NCBI GenBank assembly: GCA_046570105.1
Contig: JBKHVI010000057.1
Span: 1 to 15,809 of the forward strand
Source of the DNA: Bacteriovoracia bacterium
GTDB lineage: Bacteria; Bdellovibrionota; Bacteriovoracia; Bacteriovoracales; Bacteriovoracaceae
Direction: 5' to 3'
DNA length: 15,809 nucleotides
Shown: one piece after another, positions 1,743 to 12,537 of the stretch
Numbering within the stretch: position 1 is the first letter of the stretch
How the letters are laid out: each line of letters starts with the position of its first letter
Translations under genes and position numbers: made by a program
The notes under the pieces: generated by a model
What the model saw: only the letters and a program-made list of their open reading frames with translations
What the model was told of the DNA's origin: nothing
Database searches by the model: none

Positions 1743-2375
1743 ATGGCAAAAGCAACGATGGGCCGTTCACGGTTCAAAATCCAACGCCGTCTCGGTGTTG
1801 AACTTCCAGGTTTGGGCAAGGCCGGAGCTCTTGAGCGCCGTCCGTACGGTCCAGGTCAACACGGTATGCAACGTAAAAAGTTGTCGGACTATACCGTTCG
1901 TTTGATGGAGAAACAAAAAGTCGCATTCAACTACGGCCTTCGTGAGCGTCAGCTCGTGAACGCAGTTAAGAAAGCTAAACGTGTAAAAGGCCAAGCTTGG
2001 GTTGACGTTCTTGTCATCGCCCTTGAGTCTCGCCTTGATAACGTCGTTTTCCGTATGAACTGGGCCCCTTCAGCAATCGCAGCTCGTCAGATGGTTTCTC
2101 ACGGCCACATTCTTTTGAATGGCAAGAAAGTGAACCTTCCTGGTATCGAAGTGAACGCTGGCGACGTGATCGAGATCACGGACAAAGGTGCTAAGTCAGG
2201 AAACTTCCTCCAAGCTAAAACTCGCCCACGTATCAGCAGCATCCCTGCTTGCCTCGTGGTTGAGAAAGTTGGCGAGAAAGAAAAAGGCAAAATGGTTGCG
2301 AAGCCATTGCCAGACGATATTCCATTCGCGTTCGAGAAGCGTCTCGTGACCGAATACTACTGGAAAGTGAAGTAA
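1743..2375 (+). CDS. rpsD: 30S ribosomal protein S4, zinc-independent (C-) type, stand-alone
   Basis: Motifs RRPYGPGQHG, SDY..RLMEKQK, LESRLDNVVFR, AARQMVSHGH and EYY. AGGAG Shine-Dalgarno. No N-terminal Cys ligands. Confidence 0.97.
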   Translation: MAKATMGRSRFKIQRRLGVELPGLGKAGALERRPYGPGQHGMQRKKLSDYTVRLMEKQKVAFNYGLRERQLVNAVKKAKRVKGQAWVDVLVIALESRLDNVVFRMNWAPSAIAARQMVSHGHILLNGKKVNLPGIEVNAGDVIEITDKGAKSGNFLQAKTRPRISSIPACLVVEKVGEKEKGKMVAKPLPDDIPFAFEKRLVTEYYWKVK

Positions 2376-2394: not shown

Positions 2395-2423
2395 AAAAAG
2401 CCCCGCGAATGCGGGGCTTTTTT
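2395..2423. terminator. Bidirectional intrinsic terminator between rpsD and the antitoxin gene
   Basis: AAAAAGCCCCGC-GAAT-GCGGGGCTTTTTT, with A/T tracts on both sides, between convergent genes. Confidence 0.9.
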
Positions 2424-2730
2424 ATTTCTGGTCTTTGTAGATCCTCTCCACCGCCGCAAACAATACATTCATTGAAACATTTTGATGGGCCATCATGCGA
2501 TAAAGAGTTTGGCGATTTGTGCCGATTGCTTTAGCAAATTCATCCTGACTTTTATATTTTGGGCAGTTGGCTATGTAGGCGGCAATAATATCTGTGATTG
2601 ATTCAAAATCACCACTTCGTAAATAGTCGGCCATGAACTCAATCATATAGCTGGGATCAGCAAACTTTTTCTGTAGCTCAGCTGACTGTAGGGATACTTT
2701 TTGAGGATAAATCGTTTTTAGTTTTTTCAT
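2422..2730 (-). CDS. HTH antitoxin (HigA-like, addiction module antidote family)
   Basis: Cro/XRE-like HTH (SQDEFAKAIGTNRQTLYRMM). N-terminal DPSYMIEFMADYL segment resembles antidote proteins. Lies 3 nt downstream of a RelE-like gene. Confidence 0.8.
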   Translation of the reverse strand: MKKLKTIYPQKVSLQSAELQKKFADPSYMIEFMADYLRSGDFESITDIIAAYIANCPKYKSQDEFAKAIGTNRQTLYRMMAHQNVSMNVLFAAVERIYKDQK

Positions 2731-2733
2731 AAA

Positions 2734-3096
2734 TCATTCGTCCTTTAAATCAAGACTCCCTTTAAAAACATTAAGCTTACTCAACTTTTCTTTGCATCTT
2801 CTAATTGCCGCTTCCTGCTCCCGACCTTTTCCACTACCCAATAGTAGCAAGGTATATTGGCCGTCCGTCTCAAGAACAACAGCGAAGTACAAACGTAAAC
2901 CGTCATTCCACTTTCTTTCAAACAATCCATTTCCTAAACTCTTTACACTTTGAACGATCCCGAAAATTTTGATCTTAGCTAGCGCCACCTCAATGCTACG
3001 AATTGAAGACCCATCAAGCCTATTTCTCCATTCGTAAAAATCGGGATGTTCAATAATTTCCTTCGGAACATTTGCCGTAAAAGTATCTCTAGCCAT
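2734..3096 (-). CDS. RelE/HigB-like toxin (addiction module killer family)
   Basis: Pattern F.EW...L..., KSLGNGLFE, GLRLYF, LLLLGSGK..Q..AI. Toxin-first order with the HTH gene. GGGAG Shine-Dalgarno. Confidence 0.8.
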   Translation of the reverse strand: MARDTFTANVPKEIIEHPDFYEWRNRLDGSSIRSIEVALAKIKIFGIVQSVKSLGNGLFERKWNDGLRLYFAVVLETDGQYTLLLLGSGKGREQEAAIRRCKEKLSKLNVFKGSLDLKDE

Positions 3097-3282: not shown

Positions 3283-3642
3283 CTAATTTTTCGTTCCACC
3301 AAAACTTGAACCCCAAACGGCATGGGCCTTCTTGGCGTTGGCATCGACATTTTTCATGAACGTATCGCGTGCTTCGAGGCTTGAGAAACAGTAGTTCTTG
3401 CCTTTGAAAGCCGCTGTGATTTCAGGATCACATTTTACTTTTTGGCCTTTGCGACACAGCCCCATGGCACAGTGGCCGTCGAACTCAACCGGTGCTGATT
3501 TGATCTCTGCTTTCTTGTCACAGTTGCACTTGTGATCTTTGCCGTGATGATCTTTTTTCTCTGCGTGGTGATGGCCATGACCTTTATGGTGGTGAGCACA
3601 GCCAGCGAGAGCGATAAGCATAATAACGAGAAGAGCTTTCAT
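3283..3642 (-). CDS. His-rich lipoprotein with YHS-like domain
   Basis: ATG at 3642 overlaps the fur stop (ATGA). Lipobox LAGC, then a His-rich tract, then FDGHCAMG...DP...GKNYCFSS.EARDTF (YHS-like). Confidence 0.75.
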   Translation of the reverse strand: MKALLVIMLIALAGCAHHHKGHGHHHAEKKDHHGKDHKCNCDKKAEIKSAPVEFDGHCAMGLCRKGQKVKCDPEITAAFKGKNYCFSSLEARDTFMKNVDANAKKAHAVWGSSFGGTKN

Positions 3643-4103
3643 GATTTTCCTTTTTTCTTCTGGCACGCCGGACAGATGCCGGAGAATTCCAAATGGTGTT
3701 TAAGTTGAGCGTAACCGAGATCTTCCACCACCTTGAGAGTCTCAGGTGGAATACACATATCTAAGCGAATAATATTTTTACAAACGGTACACATCAAATG
3801 GTGATGATGCTCATGATCTCCATGGGCACACTCTCCCCTATGCACCACTTCAAAGCGCGCAGGACCATCGCCAAATAAACGCTTCTCAACGAGGCCCGCC
3901 TCTTCAAAGGTGCCCATGCTGCGATAGATAGTAGCGAGATCAAATCCTTCGCCCTTAAGTTTCACGGCGAGTTCTTCTACGGTGAAAGGCCCGTGATTAT
4001 GAATGAGAAAATTGAGAATTTTACGACGTTGTTCAGTCACCTTGAGGCCTTGGGCCTTAAGCAAATCATCAGCCGAATCATGATCATGCTTGTGATCGCC
4101 CAC
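3639..4103 (-). CDS. Fur-family transcriptional regulator (Zur/Fur/PerR type unresolved)
   Basis: Motifs GLKVTEQRRKIL, ATIYRSM, HHHHLMCTVC and GICPAC. GTG start overlaps the upstream stop (TAGTG). Confidence 0.93.
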   Translation of the reverse strand: MGDHKHDHDSADDLLKAQGLKVTEQRRKILNFLIHNHGPFTVEELAVKLKGEGFDLATIYRSMGTFEEAGLVEKRLFGDGPARFEVVHRGECAHGDHEHHHHLMCTVCKNIIRLDMCIPPETLKVVEDLGYAQLKHHLEFSGICPACQKKKGKS

Positions 4104-4339
4104 TACTTCTCCTGCGCCTCAATCTTGGCATGAACATGTGTGCGCAGCTCTCGCAGAGAATCGATACTCTTTTTAAGATAGTCGTCGGCCTTGGCGAGAC
4201 GCTCTTTTTCTTCAGGCACATCGAGTTTCTTCTCGTCGATATTACGAAGAACTTTCTTTACGGCACCTTGGATGATGGTCAAATGATTGGCCAGTTCATG
4301 AATGTGCTTTCTTTCGTGACTGTAATCGATTTTCTTCAC
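4103..4339 (-). CDS. Small stand-alone HisKA/DHp-like helical protein
   Basis: H-box-like IHELANHLTIIQG in a two-helix pattern. GTG start overlaps the SCO stop (GTGA), and the stop overlaps the fur start. Confidence 0.65.
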   Translation of the reverse strand: MKKIDYSHERKHIHELANHLTIIQGAVKKVLRNIDEKKLDVPEEKERLAKADDYLKKSIDSLRELRTHVHAKIEAQEK

Positions 4340-4941
4340 TGTCCATCCTTAGCAAGAATTTTTACATCCTCAATCAGCTCTTGAGTTTTGTCATAAGCAT
4401 AATAGCCTCTGATCTGCCCCTTCTGATCGACTAGAACCATCTTTTCAGAGTGGGCGATGTCATAAAGATCCTTAGAGGGTTGCGCCTCAGAAACATTGAC
4501 CTTAAAGCCCTCTTTATAGAGCGTAAAAAGTTTCGCCTCATCAGGATCAGTCAAAAAACTCCAGAAACCGACTTTGGCATTGTACTGATGTGAGAGCTTC
4601 TTGAGTACCTGAGGAGTGTCATGCTTGGGATCAACGGTAAATGTCAGCATCCTCACATTCGTGATCGCTGAGAGTTCTTGCTGAATTTTCTCACTGTCTT
4701 TAAGCATCTTCGGGCAAACCGACGGGCAGCTTGAGAAAACAAAGTTGGCGACATACACCTGGCCTCTTAATTCAGTCGAACTAAAAGGAGTTCCTTCTTG
4801 GTTTGTCAGAGTCCATTCAGGGACTGAAAAATAAATTGGGATTTCTTTTTGCGGAGTACATCCAAAAAAGAGTGCACTTAAAACAACAAGTCCGAAGGTT
4901 TTCACCTTCGGACTTAAATTGATGGCAAAAAGAGGAGACAT
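4336..4941 (-). CDS. SCO1/SenC copper chaperone lipoprotein (second copy); start is either ATG 4941 or GTG 4905
   Basis: CPSVC motif, FTVDPKHDTP and IAHSEK His. Lipobox-like FFGC. Confidence 0.93.
   Translation of the reverse strand: MSPLFAINLSPKVKTFGLVVLSALFFGCTPQKEIPIYFSVPEWTLTNQEGTPFSSTELRGQVYVANFVFSSCPSVCPKMLKDSEKIQQELSAITNVRMLTFTVDPKHDTPQVLKKLSHQYNAKVGFWSFLTDPDEAKLFTLYKEGFKVNVSEAQPSKDLYDIAHSEKMVLVDQKGQIRGYYAYDKTQELIEDVKILAKDGQ
4880..4915 (-). terminator. Terminator/attenuator-like hairpin overlapping the SCO gene start
   Basis: Minus strand reads AAGTCCGAAGGT-GAAA-ACCTTCGGACTT-GTTGTTTT: a perfect 12-bp stem with a GNRA loop and a U-rich tail. Confidence 0.6.
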
Positions 4942-4942
4942 C

Positions 4943-5818
4943 TTACTGTTCAGCGCGCTTGATAAAAGCGTCACGGGCACCAGCATCTTTACGTAACTCG
5001 ATCAAGCTCTCCACGTAATACGTAAGGGCCCAAAGATCATCGTCAGAAACCACGTCTTTCCAACCTGGCATGCCTGAACCAGTTACACCGTAAACCAAAC
5101 GCTGATAGATATCATCGGTTGAATAAACAGAGCGAAGATCGTGCATGGTGAAATCAGGTGGGATAACTTTGTAGTTATACTCTGAATCCTGAGGCTTTAA
5201 CTGGAAGAGATTGTCGTCAAATGAAGCAATCGCAGTGCCGTTGATTTCTTTATTCCATGCGCTGATATCAGCTTTTGAAGCATATCCACGGTGACAAGTC
5301 GTACACTGTGCGACGACGTGATAAACCTTCTCGCCGCGAGCAACCGCTTCGGCTCTCTTCTCTGTGCCGTAAGGATCAGCGGTGGCTTCGATTTTTGTGC
5401 CCAACACTTTATCCGCACCTTCCCATGCTTCAGGAGCAAAAGTTTTGATGTACTGAGTGACCGCCATCAAGCGGCGATCAGACATATCCCATGGAAGCAT
5501 GCCTGAGCCGACTAGGCCTTTGCGGATAATACGATAAAAGTCCTCATCGTGAGGAAGTTCGCCGTAAGGGACATTGGCAAATTTGTAGAGACCTTGCTTA
5601 AAGTTACGTGGAGGCGGCAACATCCCTTTGTGAGATACACCCGCTCCGTCACCTTCTTTACCGTGGCACTGAACGCAGTATTCAAGATAAGTAGAGTGTC
5701 CGAGATTCAATGTCTCAGCGTCGATCACCTGACCGCCGGCAAAAGTCTTGCTCTCTTTGAACTTGTGCTCCTGACAGGCAGTGAGGGCCACGAGCAAAAT
5801 TAACATCAAAAATTTCAT
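4943..5818 (-). CDS. Di-heme cytochrome c lipoprotein
   Basis: Lipobox LTAC. Heme motifs CVQCH and CTTCH, each followed by GSGM.xW (distal Met). Confidence 0.92.
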   Translation of the reverse strand: MKFLMLILLVALTACQEHKFKESKTFAGGQVIDAETLNLGHSTYLEYCVQCHGKEGDGAGVSHKGMLPPPRNFKQGLYKFANVPYGELPHDEDFYRIIRKGLVGSGMLPWDMSDRRLMAVTQYIKTFAPEAWEGADKVLGTKIEATADPYGTEKRAEAVARGEKVYHVVAQCTTCHRGYASKADISAWNKEINGTAIASFDDNLFQLKPQDSEYNYKVIPPDFTMHDLRSVYSTDDIYQRLVYGVTGSGMPGWKDVVSDDDLWALTYYVESLIELRKDAGARDAFIKRAEQ

Positions 5819-5843: not shown

Positions 5844-6035
5844 TTATTTGCCGTGTCTCTTCTCGTCTTTCAGGTAAATGAAACCTTTCAAGATAAAGAA
5901 TGAGATGATCAAAACAACAATCAGCGCCCATGTTGGAAAAACCAACTGATTGGCCTTAGGCATCTGGTTCGGATGACCAAAGATTGAGGTCTCTGATTGA
6001 TAAGGTACTTTTTTAGCAACAGCTTTCGTATCCAT
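5844..6035 (-). CDS. Small single-pass membrane protein in the cox operon
   Basis: Strong GAGGAG Shine-Dalgarno, one hydrophobic helix (WALIVVLIISFFIL) and a basic C-terminal tail. Fills the gap between coxIV and cytochrome c. Confidence 0.75.
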   Translation of the reverse strand: MDTKAVAKKVPYQSETSIFGHPNQMPKANQLVFPTWALIVVLIISFFILKGFIYLKDEKRHGK

Positions 6036-7028: not shown

Positions 7029-7580
7029 TTAGAAAACAAACAGGCCAAAATACATAACCAACCAAACGATGCCTAAAAAATGCCAGAACTTCTCTACATT
7101 GAGAGTGGTCTGCAAAATGTGGCGGCGTTCAGGCTTCATCACAATACGTAAAAAAACGAGCGTTCCTAATCCACACAGCACGTGGGCGGCATGGATCCAA
7201 GTAAAGGCATAGAGAATCGAAGCAAAAATTCCCGAGCTGGCAAACAAACCGACATTCTTGAGATAGGCCCACAAGAGTGACTGCACCACCATAAAACCTA
7301 GACCCAATCCCAAAGTGATGTTGAGATTAGTTTTGGCCTCTTTAAAGCTCTGAGCTTTCACATTCAAGCGCACTTGATAGGCAAACCAAGAGCTCACCAA
7401 AATCATCAGTGTGCTGACGGTAGGGAGCACGAGAGAAACTCGTCCCACACCTAATGGCGGCCACTGATCTGCCGACGTGCGGTAGATGGCGTAACCCATA
7501 AATAAAGTCGTGAACAACATCGCCCCTGAAATCAGGGTCACAGTCATAGCGAGGTTGTTCTGCAACTCGTGTCTTTTCAC
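7029..7580 (-). CDS. ctaE: Cytochrome c oxidase subunit III family protein (copy A, short)
   Basis: Five TM helices, FTWIHAAHV and FWHFLGIVWL. Immediately follows subunit I. Confidence 0.88.
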   Translation of the reverse strand: MKRHELQNNLAMTVTLISGAMLFTTLFMGYAIYRTSADQWPPLGVGRVSLVLPTVSTLMILVSSWFAYQVRLNVKAQSFKEAKTNLNITLGLGLGFMVVQSLLWAYLKNVGLFASSGIFASILYAFTWIHAAHVLCGLGTLVFLRIVMKPERRHILQTTLNVEKFWHFLGIVWLVMYFGLFVF

Positions 7581-7582
7581 TC

Positions 7583-9313
7583 TTAGCCTTTCACCAATTC
7601 TTCAGTTTGATATTGGAAGTCGCGGCCATTTTTGAGATTCGGGTTACCGAGCTCATGAGGACCACACTTCACAACCGGAATCTCATCATAGTTGTGGTGA
7701 ACAGGAGGTGACGGAATCGTCCACTCAAGTGTGCCCACGTTCCATGGATTGGCGACCGCTTTCTTACCTTTCAAGAGTGACCAAATAAAGTTGATCACGA
7801 AGATGATTTGGAAAGCGCCCATCAAAATCGCTGACACCGTGATCATTTCGTTGATCGGCATCAAGCGCTTCAATGAATCATAGATGAATGGGTTGTAGAT
7901 ACGACGGTGCATACCACCGAGACCCACCATCAACATGCCCCAGAAAATTCCGTTCAACGGAATCATGGTGCCCCAGAAGTGAATCTTGGCCATCCCTTCA
8001 TGCATCATGCGACCGAACATCTTAGGGAACCAGAAATAAATTCCAGCGTAACCACCCAAGAGAACGGAAGCTGCCATTGTGTAATGGAAGTGACCGACCA
8101 CGAAGTAGGTGTCGTGAAGATAAAGGTCAGTTGTGACAGTTCCTAAATGAAGACCGGTCAAACCACCCAAACCGAAAACGAACACAACGCCCAAAGAGAA
8201 GAGCATCGGTGAATCGAAACGAATCGAGCCTTTCCAGATTGTTCCCAGCCAGTTGGCAAAGAAGATCGCCGAAGGAATCGAGATGGTCATGGTCAGTGTC
8301 ATGAACGACTGCGTGAGCAACGGGCTCATCTGAGTCGTGAACATATGGTGACCGTAAACCAAGGTTGAAAGAACTGTTACGGCCGTCATAGCGAGAGCAG
8401 TCGCCTTGGCACCGAAAGCTGGCTTTCTTGAGAAGAAAGACAAAAGATCAGAGACGATACCCCAAGCAGGAAGAATCAAAATATAAACTTCTGGGTGACC
8501 GAAGATCCAGAAAACGTGTTGGAAGAGCACCGGATCGCCTGAGCCAGAAGTCGCAGAAGCACCGGCCAAGAAGAAAGTGGTGCCCATCACGCGATCAAAT
8601 AACAACAGCATCACACCTGCGCCCAACACTGGAACGAAGATAGCGTTCAAGATCGCTGTGAGCCAGAGACCCCAAACAGTTAAAGGCATATCGAAATAGC
8701 CCATACCAGGAGCGCGCAAGGTAATAACAGTCGTCACGTAGTTAACGGCACCCATGGTAGATGAAACACCCAACACGAAAATCGCTAAACACCATAAGGT
8801 CTGCCCCATACCAGGACTTCCGATCATAGTGGAGAGCGTGGGATAACTGGTCCATCCGCCGGCAGCAGCACCCAGTGGCACGACGAGCGAGATCAAAACG
8901 ATCAAACCTGAAAGTGCGGCAAACCAGAATGAGAGCATATTCAAAAGTGGGAACGCCATATCGCGCGCGCCGATCATGAGCGGAATACAGTAGTTACCAA
9001 AAGCACCAATTAGAATCGGTGTGATGGCGTAGAAAATCATGATGGTCCCATGCATGGTGAACAGCATGGCGTAAGTATCAGGAGGAACAACACCCGCTGA
9101 ATCAGGGAAGAGCATTTGACCCAAAACTGGGAACGGTACGCCTGGATAAGCGAGTGTCCAGCGAATCAAAAGCGCCATGATGCCGCCGATGCCGAGGAAG
9201 AAGATTCCGTACCACAGGAATTGCTTCGCGATCACTTTGTGATCGAAGGAGATAATGTACTTACTCCAAAAGGTGGTAGGTTCCGGGTGAATTTCGTTAA
9301 ATCCGCCGCTCAT
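7583..9313 (-). CDS. ctaD: Heme-copper oxidase subunit I, type A1
   Basis: All six His ligands present (TMHG, GHPEVY, GHHMF, GHFHY), plus DMAFP..N, HDTY and RR. The K-channel Lys position is Phe. Confidence 0.98.
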   Translation of the reverse strand: MSGGFNEIHPEPTTFWSKYIISFDHKVIAKQFLWYGIFFLGIGGIMALLIRWTLAYPGVPFPVLGQMLFPDSAGVVPPDTYAMLFTMHGTIMIFYAITPILIGAFGNYCIPLMIGARDMAFPLLNMLSFWFAALSGLIVLISLVVPLGAAAGGWTSYPTLSTMIGSPGMGQTLWCLAIFVLGVSSTMGAVNYVTTVITLRAPGMGYFDMPLTVWGLWLTAILNAIFVPVLGAGVMLLLFDRVMGTTFFLAGASATSGSGDPVLFQHVFWIFGHPEVYILILPAWGIVSDLLSFFSRKPAFGAKATALAMTAVTVLSTLVYGHHMFTTQMSPLLTQSFMTLTMTISIPSAIFFANWLGTIWKGSIRFDSPMLFSLGVVFVFGLGGLTGLHLGTVTTDLYLHDTYFVVGHFHYTMAASVLLGGYAGIYFWFPKMFGRMMHEGMAKIHFWGTMIPLNGIFWGMLMVGLGGMHRRIYNPFIYDSLKRLMPINEMITVSAILMGAFQIIFVINFIWSLLKGKKAVANPWNVGTLEWTIPSPPVHHNYDEIPVVKCGPHELGNPNLKNGRDFQYQTEELVKG

Positions 9314-9314
9314 A

Positions 9315-10097
9315 TTAGTTCTCCCACTTCCATCCCCACGCCAAGTTCTTGTCGTCAGGATTGTTTGTTGCCAAGGCCATTTCTTCTGAAGACTTCAACC
9401 ATTTCTGGAAGTCCTCTTCGCTATAAACTGTAAGTTGGGCTTTCATCAGGTAGTGATGAGTGCCGCACATTTCCGCACACGCAATATCGTATGTGCCAGG
9501 GATATTAGCATCCCACCATACGCGGGTGATTCGTCCTGGAATGGTATCCACTTTCAAACGCACGTTCGGTACGAAGAAGGAGTGAATCACATCTTTTGAA
9601 GTAAGGTGAAAGAGAATCTTGGTATTGGTAGGAACACGCAAATCGTTATTCGTTACCACGTCATCAGAAGTATTGAATTCACCATCAGGGCCAGCATAAC
9701 GGAATGACCACAACCACTGCTGAGCGAGGACTTGAATTTTGAGTACCTTTTCAGTTTTAGCATCAGGCCACTTCCAGAAAACATTACGAAGATCATCGTT
9801 AGCGATACGAGTGATGTTCAAGTCCACTGCCAAGAAAACCGAAGCACCGATAAATGCGGTCACTAAAAGGTGCTTCTTCTTATTGCCATAGGTGTAATAA
9901 GGCGTCTTGTTCCGCTTTGCCGAGTACAGGAAAGAGAAACCAAAAAGACCGATACACACCAAAAGGAAGAAGAAGACTCCCATCCATGATGTGTAAGCGA
10001 AAAGGCTGTCAATTAAGTGCCCGTTCGTTGAAATATCCATGGGAGGCTTTGAGAGATCCCACCAACTTGTCGATACTGCTACATTCAAAAGACCCAT
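9315..10097 (-). CDS. ctaC: Cytochrome c oxidase subunit II (CuA), no fused cytochrome c
   Basis: Two TM helices, QQWLWSFRY, DVIHSF and CAEMCGTHHYLM. Confidence 0.97.
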   Translation of the reverse strand: MGLLNVAVSTSWWDLSKPPMDISTNGHLIDSLFAYTSWMGVFFFLLVCIGLFGFSFLYSAKRNKTPYYTYGNKKKHLLVTAFIGASVFLAVDLNITRIANDDLRNVFWKWPDAKTEKVLKIQVLAQQWLWSFRYAGPDGEFNTSDDVVTNNDLRVPTNTKILFHLTSKDVIHSFFVPNVRLKVDTIPGRITRVWWDANIPGTYDIACAEMCGTHHYLMKAQLTVYSEEDFQKWLKSSEEMALATNNPDDKNLAWGWKWEN

Positions 10098-11100: not shown

Positions 11101-11224
11101 ACTTTAAACGATATATCTCAGCTTCAACCTAAGAAGTTAGCTTGTCTCATTTTTTTCCATGTCACATTGCTTCAAATTTATTTCTTGGTATTTTTTTTGT
11201 CCGCTAATCATTATAGTTTGCAGC

Positions 11225-11656
11225 ATGACCATCAATGATCTGCCGACCCTTAATGCCAGTCTCAATGGAGTTTCGACCCTGCTTTTGACATGGGGCTATA
11301 TCAGCATCCATAGGGGCAACAAAGAGCTGCATAAAAAAATAATGATCAGCGCGTTGGTGGTTTCAGCAGCTTTTTTAGTAAGTTATCTTATCTATCATTA
11401 TCATGCCGGCTCGAAGCCTTTCCCTGATCTTGGCTTTATCAAAACAATTTATTTGCTGATCTTGGTTCCTCACATTATTTTGGCGGCGGTCATGGTGCCG
11501 ATGATACTAAAAACTTTTTGGCACGCTTTTCGTGAGGAGTGGGAGCCGCATAAAAAAATTGCGCGCCTGACTTTCCCGATTTGGATGTATGTGTCGATCA
11601 CCGGAGTCATCATATATATGATGCTCTATCATTGGTTTGCCGCTCCAACAGTTTAA
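11225..11656 (+). CDS. DUF420 (CtaM/YozB-like) oxidase assembly membrane protein
   Basis: LPTLNASLN, HKKIM, FLVSYLIYH, HIILA, HKKIARLTFPIWMYVSITGVIIY. The family-like N-terminus begins at ATG 11225, not 11159. Confidence 0.93.
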   Translation: MTINDLPTLNASLNGVSTLLLTWGYISIHRGNKELHKKIMISALVVSAAFLVSYLIYHYHAGSKPFPDLGFIKTIYLLILVPHIILAAVMVPMILKTFWHAFREEWEPHKKIARLTFPIWMYVSITGVIIYMMLYHWFAAPTV

Positions 11657-11716
11657 TTACCTATTCCATTTATAAAGAATAGGTCTTATCATGGTGAGCA
11701 AAAGGAAGATTAATTT

Positions 11717-12334
11717 ATGGCGCATGCAGCAGCTGATCATCACCACGTAGAACGTAACGACGCTCAATTCGGTAAGGCCTCCATCGGCAAGATTGCCATG
11801 TGGATCTTCCTCGTCACCGATGCGATGTCGTTTTCTGGCTTCTTGATTGCTTATGCCATTCTACGCACAACGACTGATTGGCCACATCCGGCGCAATACC
11901 TCGGTATTAATCTTTCAGGTTTTGCCACTTTTATTCTCGTTTGTAGTTCTGTGTCGATGGTTCTTTCCATCGATGCCTGTAAGCATCGCGACCGCAAAGG
12001 CATGCTCAACTGGCTTCTTGCGACGATTGCCGGTGGTGTGATCTTCTTGGGAATCCAAGTTTACGAATACCAACATTTGATCAACGAAATCGGGATGACC
12101 TTCTCGAATTTCGCTCACGGAAATAATCTCTTCGCTTCAACCTTCTATATCGTAACCGGCTTCCACGGTTTGCACGTATTAACAGGTGTGATTTATTTGA
12201 TCTGCGAATACCGTATGGCGCGCGCTGGCCGCTACGACAACGGCAACTATGATCGCTTGGAAATCCTTGGATTGTTCTGGCACTTTGTTGACCTGGTCTG
12301 GATCTTGGTCTTCACCTTCATTTACTTATTATGA
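11717..12334 (+). CDS. ctaE: Cytochrome c oxidase subunit III family protein (copy B)
   Basis: GKIAMWIFLVTDAMSF, TGFHGLHV and GLFWHFVDLVWI. AAGGA Shine-Dalgarno. Confidence 0.95.
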   Translation: MAHAAADHHHVERNDAQFGKASIGKIAMWIFLVTDAMSFSGFLIAYAILRTTTDWPHPAQYLGINLSGFATFILVCSSVSMVLSIDACKHRDRKGMLNWLLATIAGGVIFLGIQVYEYQHLINEIGMTFSNFAHGNNLFASTFYIVTGFHGLHVLTGVIYLICEYRMARAGRYDNGNYDRLEILGLFWHFVDLVWILVFTFIYLL

Positions 12335-12537
12335 AGTGGTTGTTAGCTCTTCTTTTAAATTTCTTAACATTTGCTGCCTGGGCCTGTCCTAACTGTCACA
12401 ACACAGTGGGACCGGCTCGTCCGCCTTATACTCTTATCATCGTCGGCATCTTCATTTTACTGACCTATGTCCCCTTTTATATTCTGTTTAGGGCCATGAA
12501 GAAGTACGACCCGCATAACGAAATTAAGTTAGACTAA
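12331..12537 (+). CDS. Small exported, membrane-anchored CxxCH protein
   Basis: ATGA overlap with coxIII-B. Signal peptide ending AWA, mature N-terminus CPNCH, one C-terminal TM helix. Confidence 0.8.
   Translation: MKWLLALLLNFLTFAAWACPNCHNTVGPARPPYTLIIVGIFILLTYVPFYILFRAMKKYDPHNEIKLD

What the first reader, a model, noticed from the sequence alone, without database searches (positions are those of the whole stretch)
8249..8290. A1-type oxidase subunit I lacks the K-channel lysine (Lys to Phe)
Seen: helix VIII reads ISIPSAIFFANW where A-family enzymes read IAVPTG(I/V)KIF(S/N)W. This puts Phe351 (codon 8261-8263) at the K362 (R. sphaeroides) / K319 (bovine) position. The D-channel residues (FGNY, DMAFPLLN, GAVNY, HPEVY Glu), the cross-linking Tyr, all six His and the RR pair are retained. 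Established: non-polar substitution of this Lys nearly abolishes O2 turnover in model aa3/bo3 oxidases. Inference: this is a natural oxidase that takes all protons via the D-channel or an alternative route, or has altered chemistry such as a peroxide preference. The operon is intact, so decay looks unlikely.
Basis: partly seen in the sequence, partly recalled or inferred. Interest (0 to 1): 0.75.

Follow-up and report, generated by a model that had tools for sequence, protein, structure and literature searches.

The report
Lysine-free respiratory oxidase of Bacteriovorax
This gene encodes an intact, conserved respiratory oxidase subunit that lacks the lysine textbook enzymes need to feed protons to the active site, a loss already tabulated for Bacteriovorax; the enzyme likely still reduces oxygen, and a new buried aspartate in its partner subunit may do the lysine's job, which is untested.

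Summary
Confirmed: Phe351 (TTC, 8261-8263) sits at the K-channel lysine position. It is neither an error nor a private mutation. All 121 closest proteins have Phe or Leu there, dN/dS is about 0.03-0.07, and the clade reaches at least six phyla. The rest of the channel is dismantled too: subunit II has lost the entry glutamate, and Trp284 is invariant beside the site. Two residues track the loss: subunit I Ser345, and subunit II Asp92 (54 of 54), predicted to face helix VIII. In 12 near-complete genomes, one a single contig, this is the only heme-copper oxidase found and no cytochrome bd was found. That favours O2 reduction over a peroxide preference. The Lys-to-Phe change is already in print: Degli Esposti et al. 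2021 tabulate it for Bacteriovorax and Halobacteriovorax in a supplement, as a 'KC-channel' variant. I found no biochemistry. This scan also reported the same kind of clade, with a buried subunit II acid, on other genomes. Best guess: Asp92 and Ser345 replace the lysine (about 45%); D-channel only is the main rival. A catalogued but untested variant, with culturable members.

The parts
7583..9313 (-). Oxidase subunit I (576 aa), A1 motif GHPEVY, CoxN-like
   Evidence: PF00115 E 8.6e-134; TIGR02891 557 bits, under its 670.75 cut-off; model pLDDT 88.5 matches A-family structures, TM about 0.85
8261..8263 (-). Phe351 in place of the K-channel lysine
8279..8281 (-). Ser345 (Ala348 in P. denitrificans), polar gain that tracks the lysine loss
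   Evidence: S or T in 148 of 151 lysine-free rows, A or G in 47 of 48 lysine rows
8270..8272 (-). Ser348 (T351 position, upper K-path); relaxed in the clade
   Evidence: Ala or Gly in 16 of 82 clade rows
8450..8452 (-). Ser288 (S291 position, lower K-path); partly kept
   Evidence: S in 40, G in 8 of 51
8462..8464 (-). Trp284 (F287 position), invariant bulky residue in helix VI
   Evidence: 51 of 51 in the tree-defined clade, 0 of 15 lysine-bearing relatives
8399..8401 (-). Thr305, polar gain at a position equivalent to a C-family channel serine
   Evidence: T or S in 51 of 51, Met in 15 of 15 relatives; aligned to CcoN
8960..8962 (-). Asp118, D-channel entry
   Evidence: 49 of 51; faces D124 of 1ar1
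8483..8491 (-). Glu275 and Tyr277 of the HPEVY motif
   Evidence: 51 of 51 each
9315..10097 (-). Oxidase subunit II with CuA ligands H172, C207, C211, H215, M218
   Evidence: PF00116; each of these ligands 54 of 54
9870..9872 (-). Subunit II His76 in place of the K-channel entry glutamate
   Evidence: faces the Glu of T. thermophilus caa3 subunit II; Glu kept in 23 of 23 lysine-bearing rows shown
9822..9824 (-). Subunit II Asp92, invariant acid inside the second membrane helix
   Evidence: 54 of 54; in the predicted interface with subunit I
7029..7580 (-). Subunit III, first copy
   Evidence: PF00510
6351..7019 (-). SCO copper chaperone
   Evidence: PF02630
6049..6336 (-). Subunit IV
   Evidence: PF03626
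5844..6035 (-). Small membrane protein of no known family, kept in many Bacteriovoracaceae operons
   Evidence: no Pfam or NCBIfam hit; homologs beside the operon
4943..5818 (-). Cytochrome c with two CxxCH motifs, likely electron donor
   Evidence: PF13442; beside the oxidase in most clade loci
4336..4986 (-). Second SCO protein
   Evidence: PF02630
10137..11057 (-). Heme O synthase CtaB
   Evidence: TIGR01473 over cut-off
11159..11656 (+). DUF420 protein
   Evidence: PF04238
11717..12334 (+). Subunit III, second copy
   Evidence: PF00510
12331..12537 (+). Small CPNC-motif membrane protein linked to the operon
   Evidence: no family hit; homologs beside the operon

Best explanation
This is the intact catalytic subunit of a CuA-type A1 cytochrome c oxidase from a wide clade that lacks the K-channel lysine and its entry glutamate; it likely still reduces O2, and likely replaces the lysine with subunit II Asp92 acting through helix VIII Ser345, which is untested. 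Shown: the loss, its fixation, the kept metal ligands and D-channel acids, and the co-gain of Ser345 and Asp92. Inferred: electrons run from the dihaem cytochrome c to CuA, the low-spin heme and the binuclear site; pumped protons and two chemical protons use the D-channel; Trp284 and Phe351/352 plug the old K cavity. Predicted: Asp92 packs against helix VIII in the outer half of the membrane, about one turn from Ser345. Speculative: Asp92 gives the proton, or the charge compensation, that the lysine supplies to Tyr277 in the reductive half of the cycle. Which side refills Asp92 is open.
For: Fixation and selection: 121 of 121 without Lys; dN/dS 0.028-0.072 in 8 of 8 same-genus pairs (synonymous sites near saturation, so rough). 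Clade: 51 thinned rows, SH-aLRT 100; 15 rows, 100, under a mixture model. O2 use: in 12 of 105 class genomes searched, the single PF00115 match is this enzyme and bd subunit I was not found. They include G119 (one contig, 99%) and G122 (4 contigs, 99%). G027 and G036 outside the class show the same. G000 also has heme A synthase and a cytochrome b. Compensation: Ser or Thr at 345 in 148 of 151 lysine-free rows against Ala or Gly in 47 of 48 lysine rows, and 61 of 61 against 19 of 19 in 80 loci fetched afterwards. Asp92 is invariant in 54 of 54 subunit II sequences of 31-87% identity, in a helix where only Gly71 and Phe88 are as well kept. The predicted I-II complex (score 0.89, best control 0.00; mark reached by 116 of 157 solved and 2 of 215 mismatched pairs; runs agree in at least 93% of contacts; partner pLDDT at least 84) lists II:91-92 and I:342-343, 345-346 in the interface. 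A related lysine-free group has membrane glutamates in the same helix.
Against: No activity, pumping or expression data: RNA runs held only short or divergent contigs. The complex is a textbook pair that can pass by likeness; no Asp92-Ser345 pair is among the listed contacts and no coordinates were returned, so their nearness is read from helical register. No conserved polar chain links Asp92 to the cytoplasm (columns 77-91 mostly apolar). The correlated residues may come from one ancestral event: both lysine-free groups fall on one weak branch (support 44), so the counts are not independent. Three Lys-to-Gln outgroup oxidases lack Ser345 and one lysine-bearing enzyme has it. Asp stands at the entry column in 11 of 54 subunit II rows. 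G000 itself has a cbb3 oxidase. Two of 105 genomes showed neither an oxidase nor bd, so absence in fragmented genomes can mislead. The AOX searches had no positive control.
Confidence: 0.45

Rival explanations
1. Working O2 reductase that takes all eight protons through the D-channel. Asp92 and Ser345 are structural or only tune the heme potential.
For: D118, N107, N125, N191 and E275 are kept. Clade-specific invariants also occur in helix V (N223 51 of 51, F226 50 of 51) and beside the heme ligands (G407 51 of 51, T412 46 of 51). No polar wire joins Asp92 to the cytoplasm. Lysine-free oxidases of iron oxidisers were proposed to rely on the D-channel (passages).
Against: In R. sphaeroides K362M an intact D-channel does not rescue oxidase activity (passages). 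Three Myxococcaceae-type members have also lost D118 (L093, L095, L099) yet keep Asp92 and Ser345.
Confidence: 0.27
2. A C-family-like 'KC' path along helix VII replaces the K-channel, as classified by Degli Esposti et al. 2021.
For: T305 faces the CcoN serine of that path and is T or S in 51 of 51 against Met in 15 of 15 relatives. S316 is invariant, T313 common and F320 of P. denitrificans is reduced to T, A, G or S. Their table lists Halobacteriovorax as KC and B. stolpii as hybrid.
Against: Other KC positions are not rebuilt: G301 (G in 70 of 82), A308 (A 41, S 34, C 7; His in CcoN), F380 (82 of 82; Tyr in CcoN). D/E289 and N354 are shared with lysine-bearing relatives. The second lysine-free group has apolar residues at 305 in 60 of 61.
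Confidence: 0.13
3. Altered chemistry: the enzyme mainly reduces H2O2 (or NO), like the K362M mutant that keeps peroxidase activity.
For: K362M keeps peroxidase and loses oxidase activity (passages). Most family members also carry a cbb3-sized oxidase that could do the O2 respiration.
Against: Sole detectable oxidase in 12 class genomes. The active-site Tyr and the three CuB histidines are invariant. Full assembly gene set and upstream complex III or ACIII subunits are present.
Confidence: 0.08
4. Assembly error, private loss-of-function mutation or decaying gene.
For: G000 has a cbb3 back-up.
Against: Codon seen in other runs' contigs; fixed in 121 of 121; dN/dS under 0.08; clade spans several phyla.
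Confidence: 0.01

Closest known systems
'Oligoflexia' A1 subclade (Bacteriovorax stolpii WP_102242033, Halobacteriovorax WP_114706215) of Degli Esposti et al. 2021, PMC8239418, Table S1 and table for Fig. S7
   Same: Same taxa and same residues: Y, S, F, S, N, D, G, T, A, S at their K and KC columns and a non-Glu at COX2 E78; the window protein matches the B. stolpii row in subunit I.
   Different: Their table has no column for Ala348-to-Ser, Phe287-to-Trp or the subunit II aspartate; the text parts read give no biochemistry and name only 'Bacteriovorax and other taxa'. They favour an ancestral KC-like origin; my best trees nest the clade among lysine-bearing enzymes but do not reject their rooting.
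CoxMNOP-like A1 oxidases, subtype a-III (two subunit III genes) and the Gemmatimonadota/Rokubacteria A1 group
   Same: Nearest lysine-bearing relatives (43-55% identity); one starred branch with the clade; two subunit III genes, subunit IV, DUF420.
   Different: They keep Lys, the entry Glu, Ala345 and Met/Phe284, and lack Asp92.
Canonical A1 aa3 oxidases (P. denitrificans 1ar1, R. sphaeroides 1m56/2gsm, mycobacterial CtaD) and the R. sphaeroides K362M mutant (3om3)
   Same: Fold (TM about 0.85, rmsd 2.4-2.6 A), metal ligands, HPEVY, D-channel acids, RR pair.
   Different: K-channel lysine and entry glutamate absent. The K362M mutant has lost oxidase activity, whereas this clade is under strong purifying selection.
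Lysine-free A2-type oxidases of acidophilic iron oxidisers (Acidithiobacillus and others) and the Elusimicrobia 'KC channel' A1 group
   Same: Hydrophobic residue at the lysine site, D-channel kept. The Elusimicrobia group shares Ser345 and membrane acids in subunit II helix 2.
   Different: The iron-oxidiser enzymes were not sampled here and are classed in other subclades. The Elusimicrobia group lacks Trp284 and N354 and has two glutamates whose homology to Asp92 is uncertain.
B-family (ba3) and C-family (cbb3) oxidases
   Same: Work without this lysine (one search lists Thr for ba3 and Gly for cbb3).
   Different: They lack the D-channel and use a polar K-analogue path; here the D-channel is kept and similarity to ba3 is weak (E about 1e-4 against 1e-113).

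Membership tests
A-family heme-copper O2 reductase | Six histidine ligands for low-spin heme, high-spin heme and CuB | tested here: met
   H88, 273, 322, 323, 408, 410
A-family heme-copper O2 reductase | Active-site Tyr in helix VI | tested here: met
   Y277, 51 of 51; the cross-link itself is not testable
A-family heme-copper O2 reductase | D-channel (Asp, Asn, Asn, Asn, Glu) | tested here: met
   D118, N107, N125, N191, E275; Y35 position is Phe
A-family heme-copper O2 reductase | K-channel with Lys, Thr/Ser, Ser, Tyr and subunit II Glu | tested here: not met
   F351 and H76(II); S288, S348 and Y277 remain. So it is not a canonical two-channel A enzyme, though it sits in the A tree.
A-family heme-copper O2 reductase | CuA-bearing subunit II | tested here: met
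A-family heme-copper O2 reductase | Reduces O2 and pumps about one proton per electron | not testable with these tools
   only indirect support from gene content
A1 subfamily | XGHPEVY motif (definition read in PMC8361435) | tested here: met
   FGHPEVY
Subtype a-III (CoxMNOP-like) operon | Two subunit III genes (PMC6431628) | tested here: met
   7029-7580 and 11717-12334; the published table files Bacteriovorax as a separate subclade
'Oligoflexia' lysine-free A1 subclade (Degli Esposti 2021) | Bacteriovorax-type COX1 with Phe at K354, non-Glu at COX2 E78, residues S/F/S/N/D/G/T/(A or S)/S | tested here: met
   81% identical to a Bacteriovorax sp. PP10 protein
C-family KC-channel | Ser, Ser, His, Tyr, Tyr along helices VI-VII plus a helix IX Tyr | tested here: not met
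   G301, T305, A308, D289, S316, F380; only T305 is a clade-specific match; the helix IX Tyr as a channel residue is recalled
B-family (ba3) | No D-channel; Thr/Ser/Tyr K-analogue | tested here: not met
   D-channel present; Phe at the Thr site; weak similarity
NO reductases | No active-site Tyr; changed ligand set (PMC11214002) | tested here: not met
   Tyr277 and HH motif present

The most novel reading that the evidence does not exclude
An A-family oxidase whose K-type chemical protons enter through a carboxylate of subunit II (Asp92 to Ser345 to the active-site Tyr), refilled from the periplasmic side. It would still pump through the D-channel but move about six rather than eight charges per O2: a natural low-gear oxidase and a third proton route in the A family, spread over many phyla.
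Probability: 0.2. Interest if true: 0.8.

Novelty: new member of a known kind. Interest (0 to 1): 0.5.

Why it matters
Why A-family oxidases need two proton channels, and whether the lysine carries protons or compensates charge, is a long-standing question studied mostly with crippled mutants. This clade is a natural, selected enzyme without the lysine. It is the commonest A-type oxidase of Bacteriovoracia and has cultured members. The sequence points to two residues (subunit II Asp92, subunit I Ser345) whose mutation would separate the rival mechanisms. The loss itself is not new in print, which caps the score.

Tried and rejected
Register shift supplying another lysine: rejected. Assembly error and decay: rejected. 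Expression: RNA runs X18-X20 held only small shares and short or divergent contigs, so nothing is shown. The top Foldseek hit being the K362M structure means nothing, as it ties with wild type. Independent origin of the two lysine-free groups: not shown; they join on a branch of support 44. Derived versus ancestral loss: best trees say derived, but rooting on the lysine-free branch is not rejected (p-AU 0.34; quick trees, long outgroup branches). The careful tree did not finish. Treating the second group's glutamate as the homolog of Asp92: uncertain, with a 5-residue offset from the upstream Tyr. AOX absence: inconclusive without a positive control. The wide profile search of 50%-cluster representatives never ran, so the clade's full breadth is not measured. 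Ducluzeau 2014 was not held and the Degli Esposti 2020 review was not read; either may describe more. Paper searches that found no biochemical study or mention of the aspartate: and a supplement search for 'Asp' and 'aspartate'; the library lacks most subscription papers, and bioRxiv supplements were not seen.

Full report
Observation. The window is a whole 15.8 kb contig of an 88% complete genome whose oxidase is closest to Bacteriovoracaceae proteins. Subunit I lies at 7583-9313 (-). Against P. denitrificans 1ar1 helix VIII aligns without gaps and Phe351 (TTC, 8261-8263) faces the lysine. There is no lysine between residues 303 and 361 and the helix is continuous in the model (pLDDT 88.5). 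Contigs of three runs from two studies span the codon unchanged. The six histidines, Tyr277, Glu275, Asp118, Asn107/125/191 and the arginine pair are present. The Y35 position is Phe, as in 10 of 15 lysine-bearing relatives.

Surroundings. The cluster holds CtaB, subunits II, I, III, SCO, IV, a 63-residue membrane protein, a dihaem cytochrome c and a second SCO on the minus strand. DUF420, a second subunit III and a 68-residue protein lie on the plus strand. Elsewhere the genome has heme A synthase, a cytochrome b and a cbb3 oxidase with fused CcoNO; cytochrome bd was not found. A third COX1 match is a 690-base, 29% GC contig with six TGA codons at Trp positions, probably a mitochondrial contaminant.

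Breadth and selection. None of 121 closest proteins has lysine. dN/dS to 8 same-genus relatives is 0.028-0.072 (rough). Loci from named genomes extend the type to Myxococcota, Planctomycetota, Omnitrophota, Marinimicrobia and Acidobacteriota. After thinning 119 rows to 82 at 86% identity, 51 lysine-free rows form one branch (SH-aLRT 100) inside a starred group with lysine-bearing CoxN-like, Gemmatimonadota and Rokubacteria enzymes and a second lysine-free group. A 37-row mixture-model tree agrees (quick search only). With B/C-type outgroups the nesting holds, but a root on the lysine-free branch is not rejected (p-AU 0.34), and the two lysine-free groups may be one clade (support 44). About 81 of 105 class genomes carry a match in this enzyme's length and score band (counted by hand, not all read at the residue).

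The channel is dismantled, not point-mutated. Subunit II lacks the entry glutamate: His76 here, and His, Ser, Asp, Gln or Asn in 50 of 54 clade rows, Asp in 11 of them. All 23 lysine-bearing rows shown keep the Glu. Ser288 is Gly in 8 of 51 and Ser348 is Ala or Gly in 16 of 82. Trp284 is invariant and Phe352 nearly so; that these fill the old cavity is my inference from the recalled position of F287.

What was gained. Ser345 replaces Ala348 of P. denitrificans: Ser or Thr in 148 of 151 lysine-free rows, Ala or Gly in 47 of 48 lysine rows, with four named exceptions. In 80 metagenome loci fetched afterwards the split was 61 of 61 and 19 of 19. These rows are kin and include near-copies. Subunit II has Asp92 in 54 of 54 sequences, 16 residues after the old entry site. 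Other invariant or near-invariant gains are Asn223, Thr/Ser305, Gly407 and Thr412; 13 of 82 rows add a helix VIII Glu at 349, always where Ser348 is lost. Tyr or His at 389 (71 of 82; Tyr in 3 of 48 lysine rows) is a possible partner of Asp92. The predicted I-II complex scored 0.89 against a best control of 0.00; the mark was reached by 116 of 157 solved and 2 of 215 mismatched pairs; runs agree in at least 93% of contacts and partner pLDDT is at least 84. This is a textbook pair, so the pass shows likeness only. Its use is the interface list, which includes II:91-92 and I:342-343 and 345-346, with II:99 touching I:392-394 at the outer face. Helical register then puts Asp92 in the outer half of the membrane about a turn from Ser345; no direct pair was listed. 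That the Ala at 345 lines the high-spin heme's side chain near the active-site Tyr in canonical structures is recalled, not computed.

Does it reduce O2? In 12 of the 105 class genomes the only PF00115 match is this enzyme, read at the residue level, and bd subunit I was not found; ccoN was also not found in the 5 tested. One, G119, is a single 2.48 Mb contig at 99% and has an NrfD-family (ACIII-like) subunit. Against this: G101 and G104 showed neither oxidase type, the AOX search had no working control, and the lifestyle of these uncultured genomes is unknown. I put O2 reduction at about 85%.

Mechanism. In canonical enzymes the K path supplies the two protons of the reductive half to the Tyr (PMC8361435, passages), and K362M blocks oxidase but not peroxidase activity (PMC7601700, passages). 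A selected enzyme without the lysine therefore needs a substitute. I favour Asp92 with Ser345 (0.45), ahead of D-only (0.27), a helix VII KC-like path (0.13) and peroxide chemistry (0.08). For KC, alignment with the genome's own CcoN shows only Thr305 as a clade-specific match. No conserved polar chain runs from Asp92 to the cytoplasm, which is why periplasmic refilling is the novel case.

Prior knowledge. Degli Esposti et al. 2021 (PMC8239418; main-text passages, supplementary file 5 whole, file 2 parts 2-3 and passages) list Halobacteriovorax and B. stolpii with Phe at K354 and Ile or Ala at COX2 E78, define an 'Oligoflexia' subclade marked 'no, KC', and list my second group as the Elusimicrobia KC group. 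The preprint 10.1101/2020.03.01.968255 (passages) describes lysine-free oxidases in iron oxidisers. Murali et al. 2024 (PMC11214002; passages and supplement rows) count one A and one C enzyme in B. stolpii and H. marinus. PMC6431628 (passages) defines subtype a-III. I found no biochemical study and no mention of Asp92 or Ser345 in the searches listed under Tried and rejected. Unchecked notes from this scan describe the same kind of clade and buried acid on other genomes; I saw them after finding Asp92, and they are not independent support.

Verdict. Real, fixed and probably functional. A new member of a catalogued but uncharacterised variant, with specific residues that make an old mechanistic question testable. 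Interest 0.5.

Noticed in passing
window 11159-12537: DUF420, the second subunit III and the 68-residue gene point away from ctaB here and in L034, but lie on the same strand upstream of ctaB in L035-L037 and others: a local inversion.
   Followed up: partly
window 5844-6035 and 12331-12537: Two small membrane proteins of no known family travel with the operon in Bacteriovoracaceae; the second has a CPNC motif. Possible extra subunits or assembly factors.
   Followed up: partly
window 2422-3096: Gene pair with weak hits to the HI1419/HI1420 addiction-module families (TIGR02683 E 6.6e-07, TIGR02684 E 0.0014; both under cut-off): a likely toxin-antitoxin pair.
   Followed up: partly
window 1743-2375: Ribosomal protein S4 gene standing apart from other ribosomal genes; the only tblastn match in the assembly.
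   Followed up: partly
window 3283-4339: His-rich lipoprotein with a weak YHS-domain hit, a Fur-family regulator and a 78-residue protein of no family follow the oxidase genes on the same strand.
   Followed up: no
L003 (G000:C123): 690-base, 29% GC contig with a cox1 fragment that keeps the lysine and has six TGA at Trp positions; probably mitochondrial contamination of the bin.
   Followed up: partly
L093, L095, L099 (Myxococcus, Pyxidicoccus, Hyalangium): These clade members have also lost the D-channel entry Asp and the Asp of the HDT motif: both canonical entries are gone, in partly cultured genera.
   Followed up: no
L058, L059, L064, L080, L082, L083, L088-L090, L093-L095, L097: A helix VIII glutamate at 349 appears where Ser348 is replaced by Ala or Gly (13 of 82 rows).
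   Followed up: partly
L141-L202 (second lysine-free group): Subunit II has two glutamates seven residues apart in helix 2 and often a His at the start of helix 1; subunit I has Gln338 in 51 of 66.
   Followed up: partly
L119, L120, L136: A separate group with Gln at the lysine site and no subunit II entry Glu, without Ser345.
   Followed up: no
L132 (G025): A 0.9 Mb, 96% complete genome keeps the lysine-free oxidase alongside cytochrome bd.
   Followed up: no
L231 and L233 (G124): A single-contig genome carries both the lysine-free A1 enzyme and a lysine-bearing A2 enzyme.
   Followed up: no
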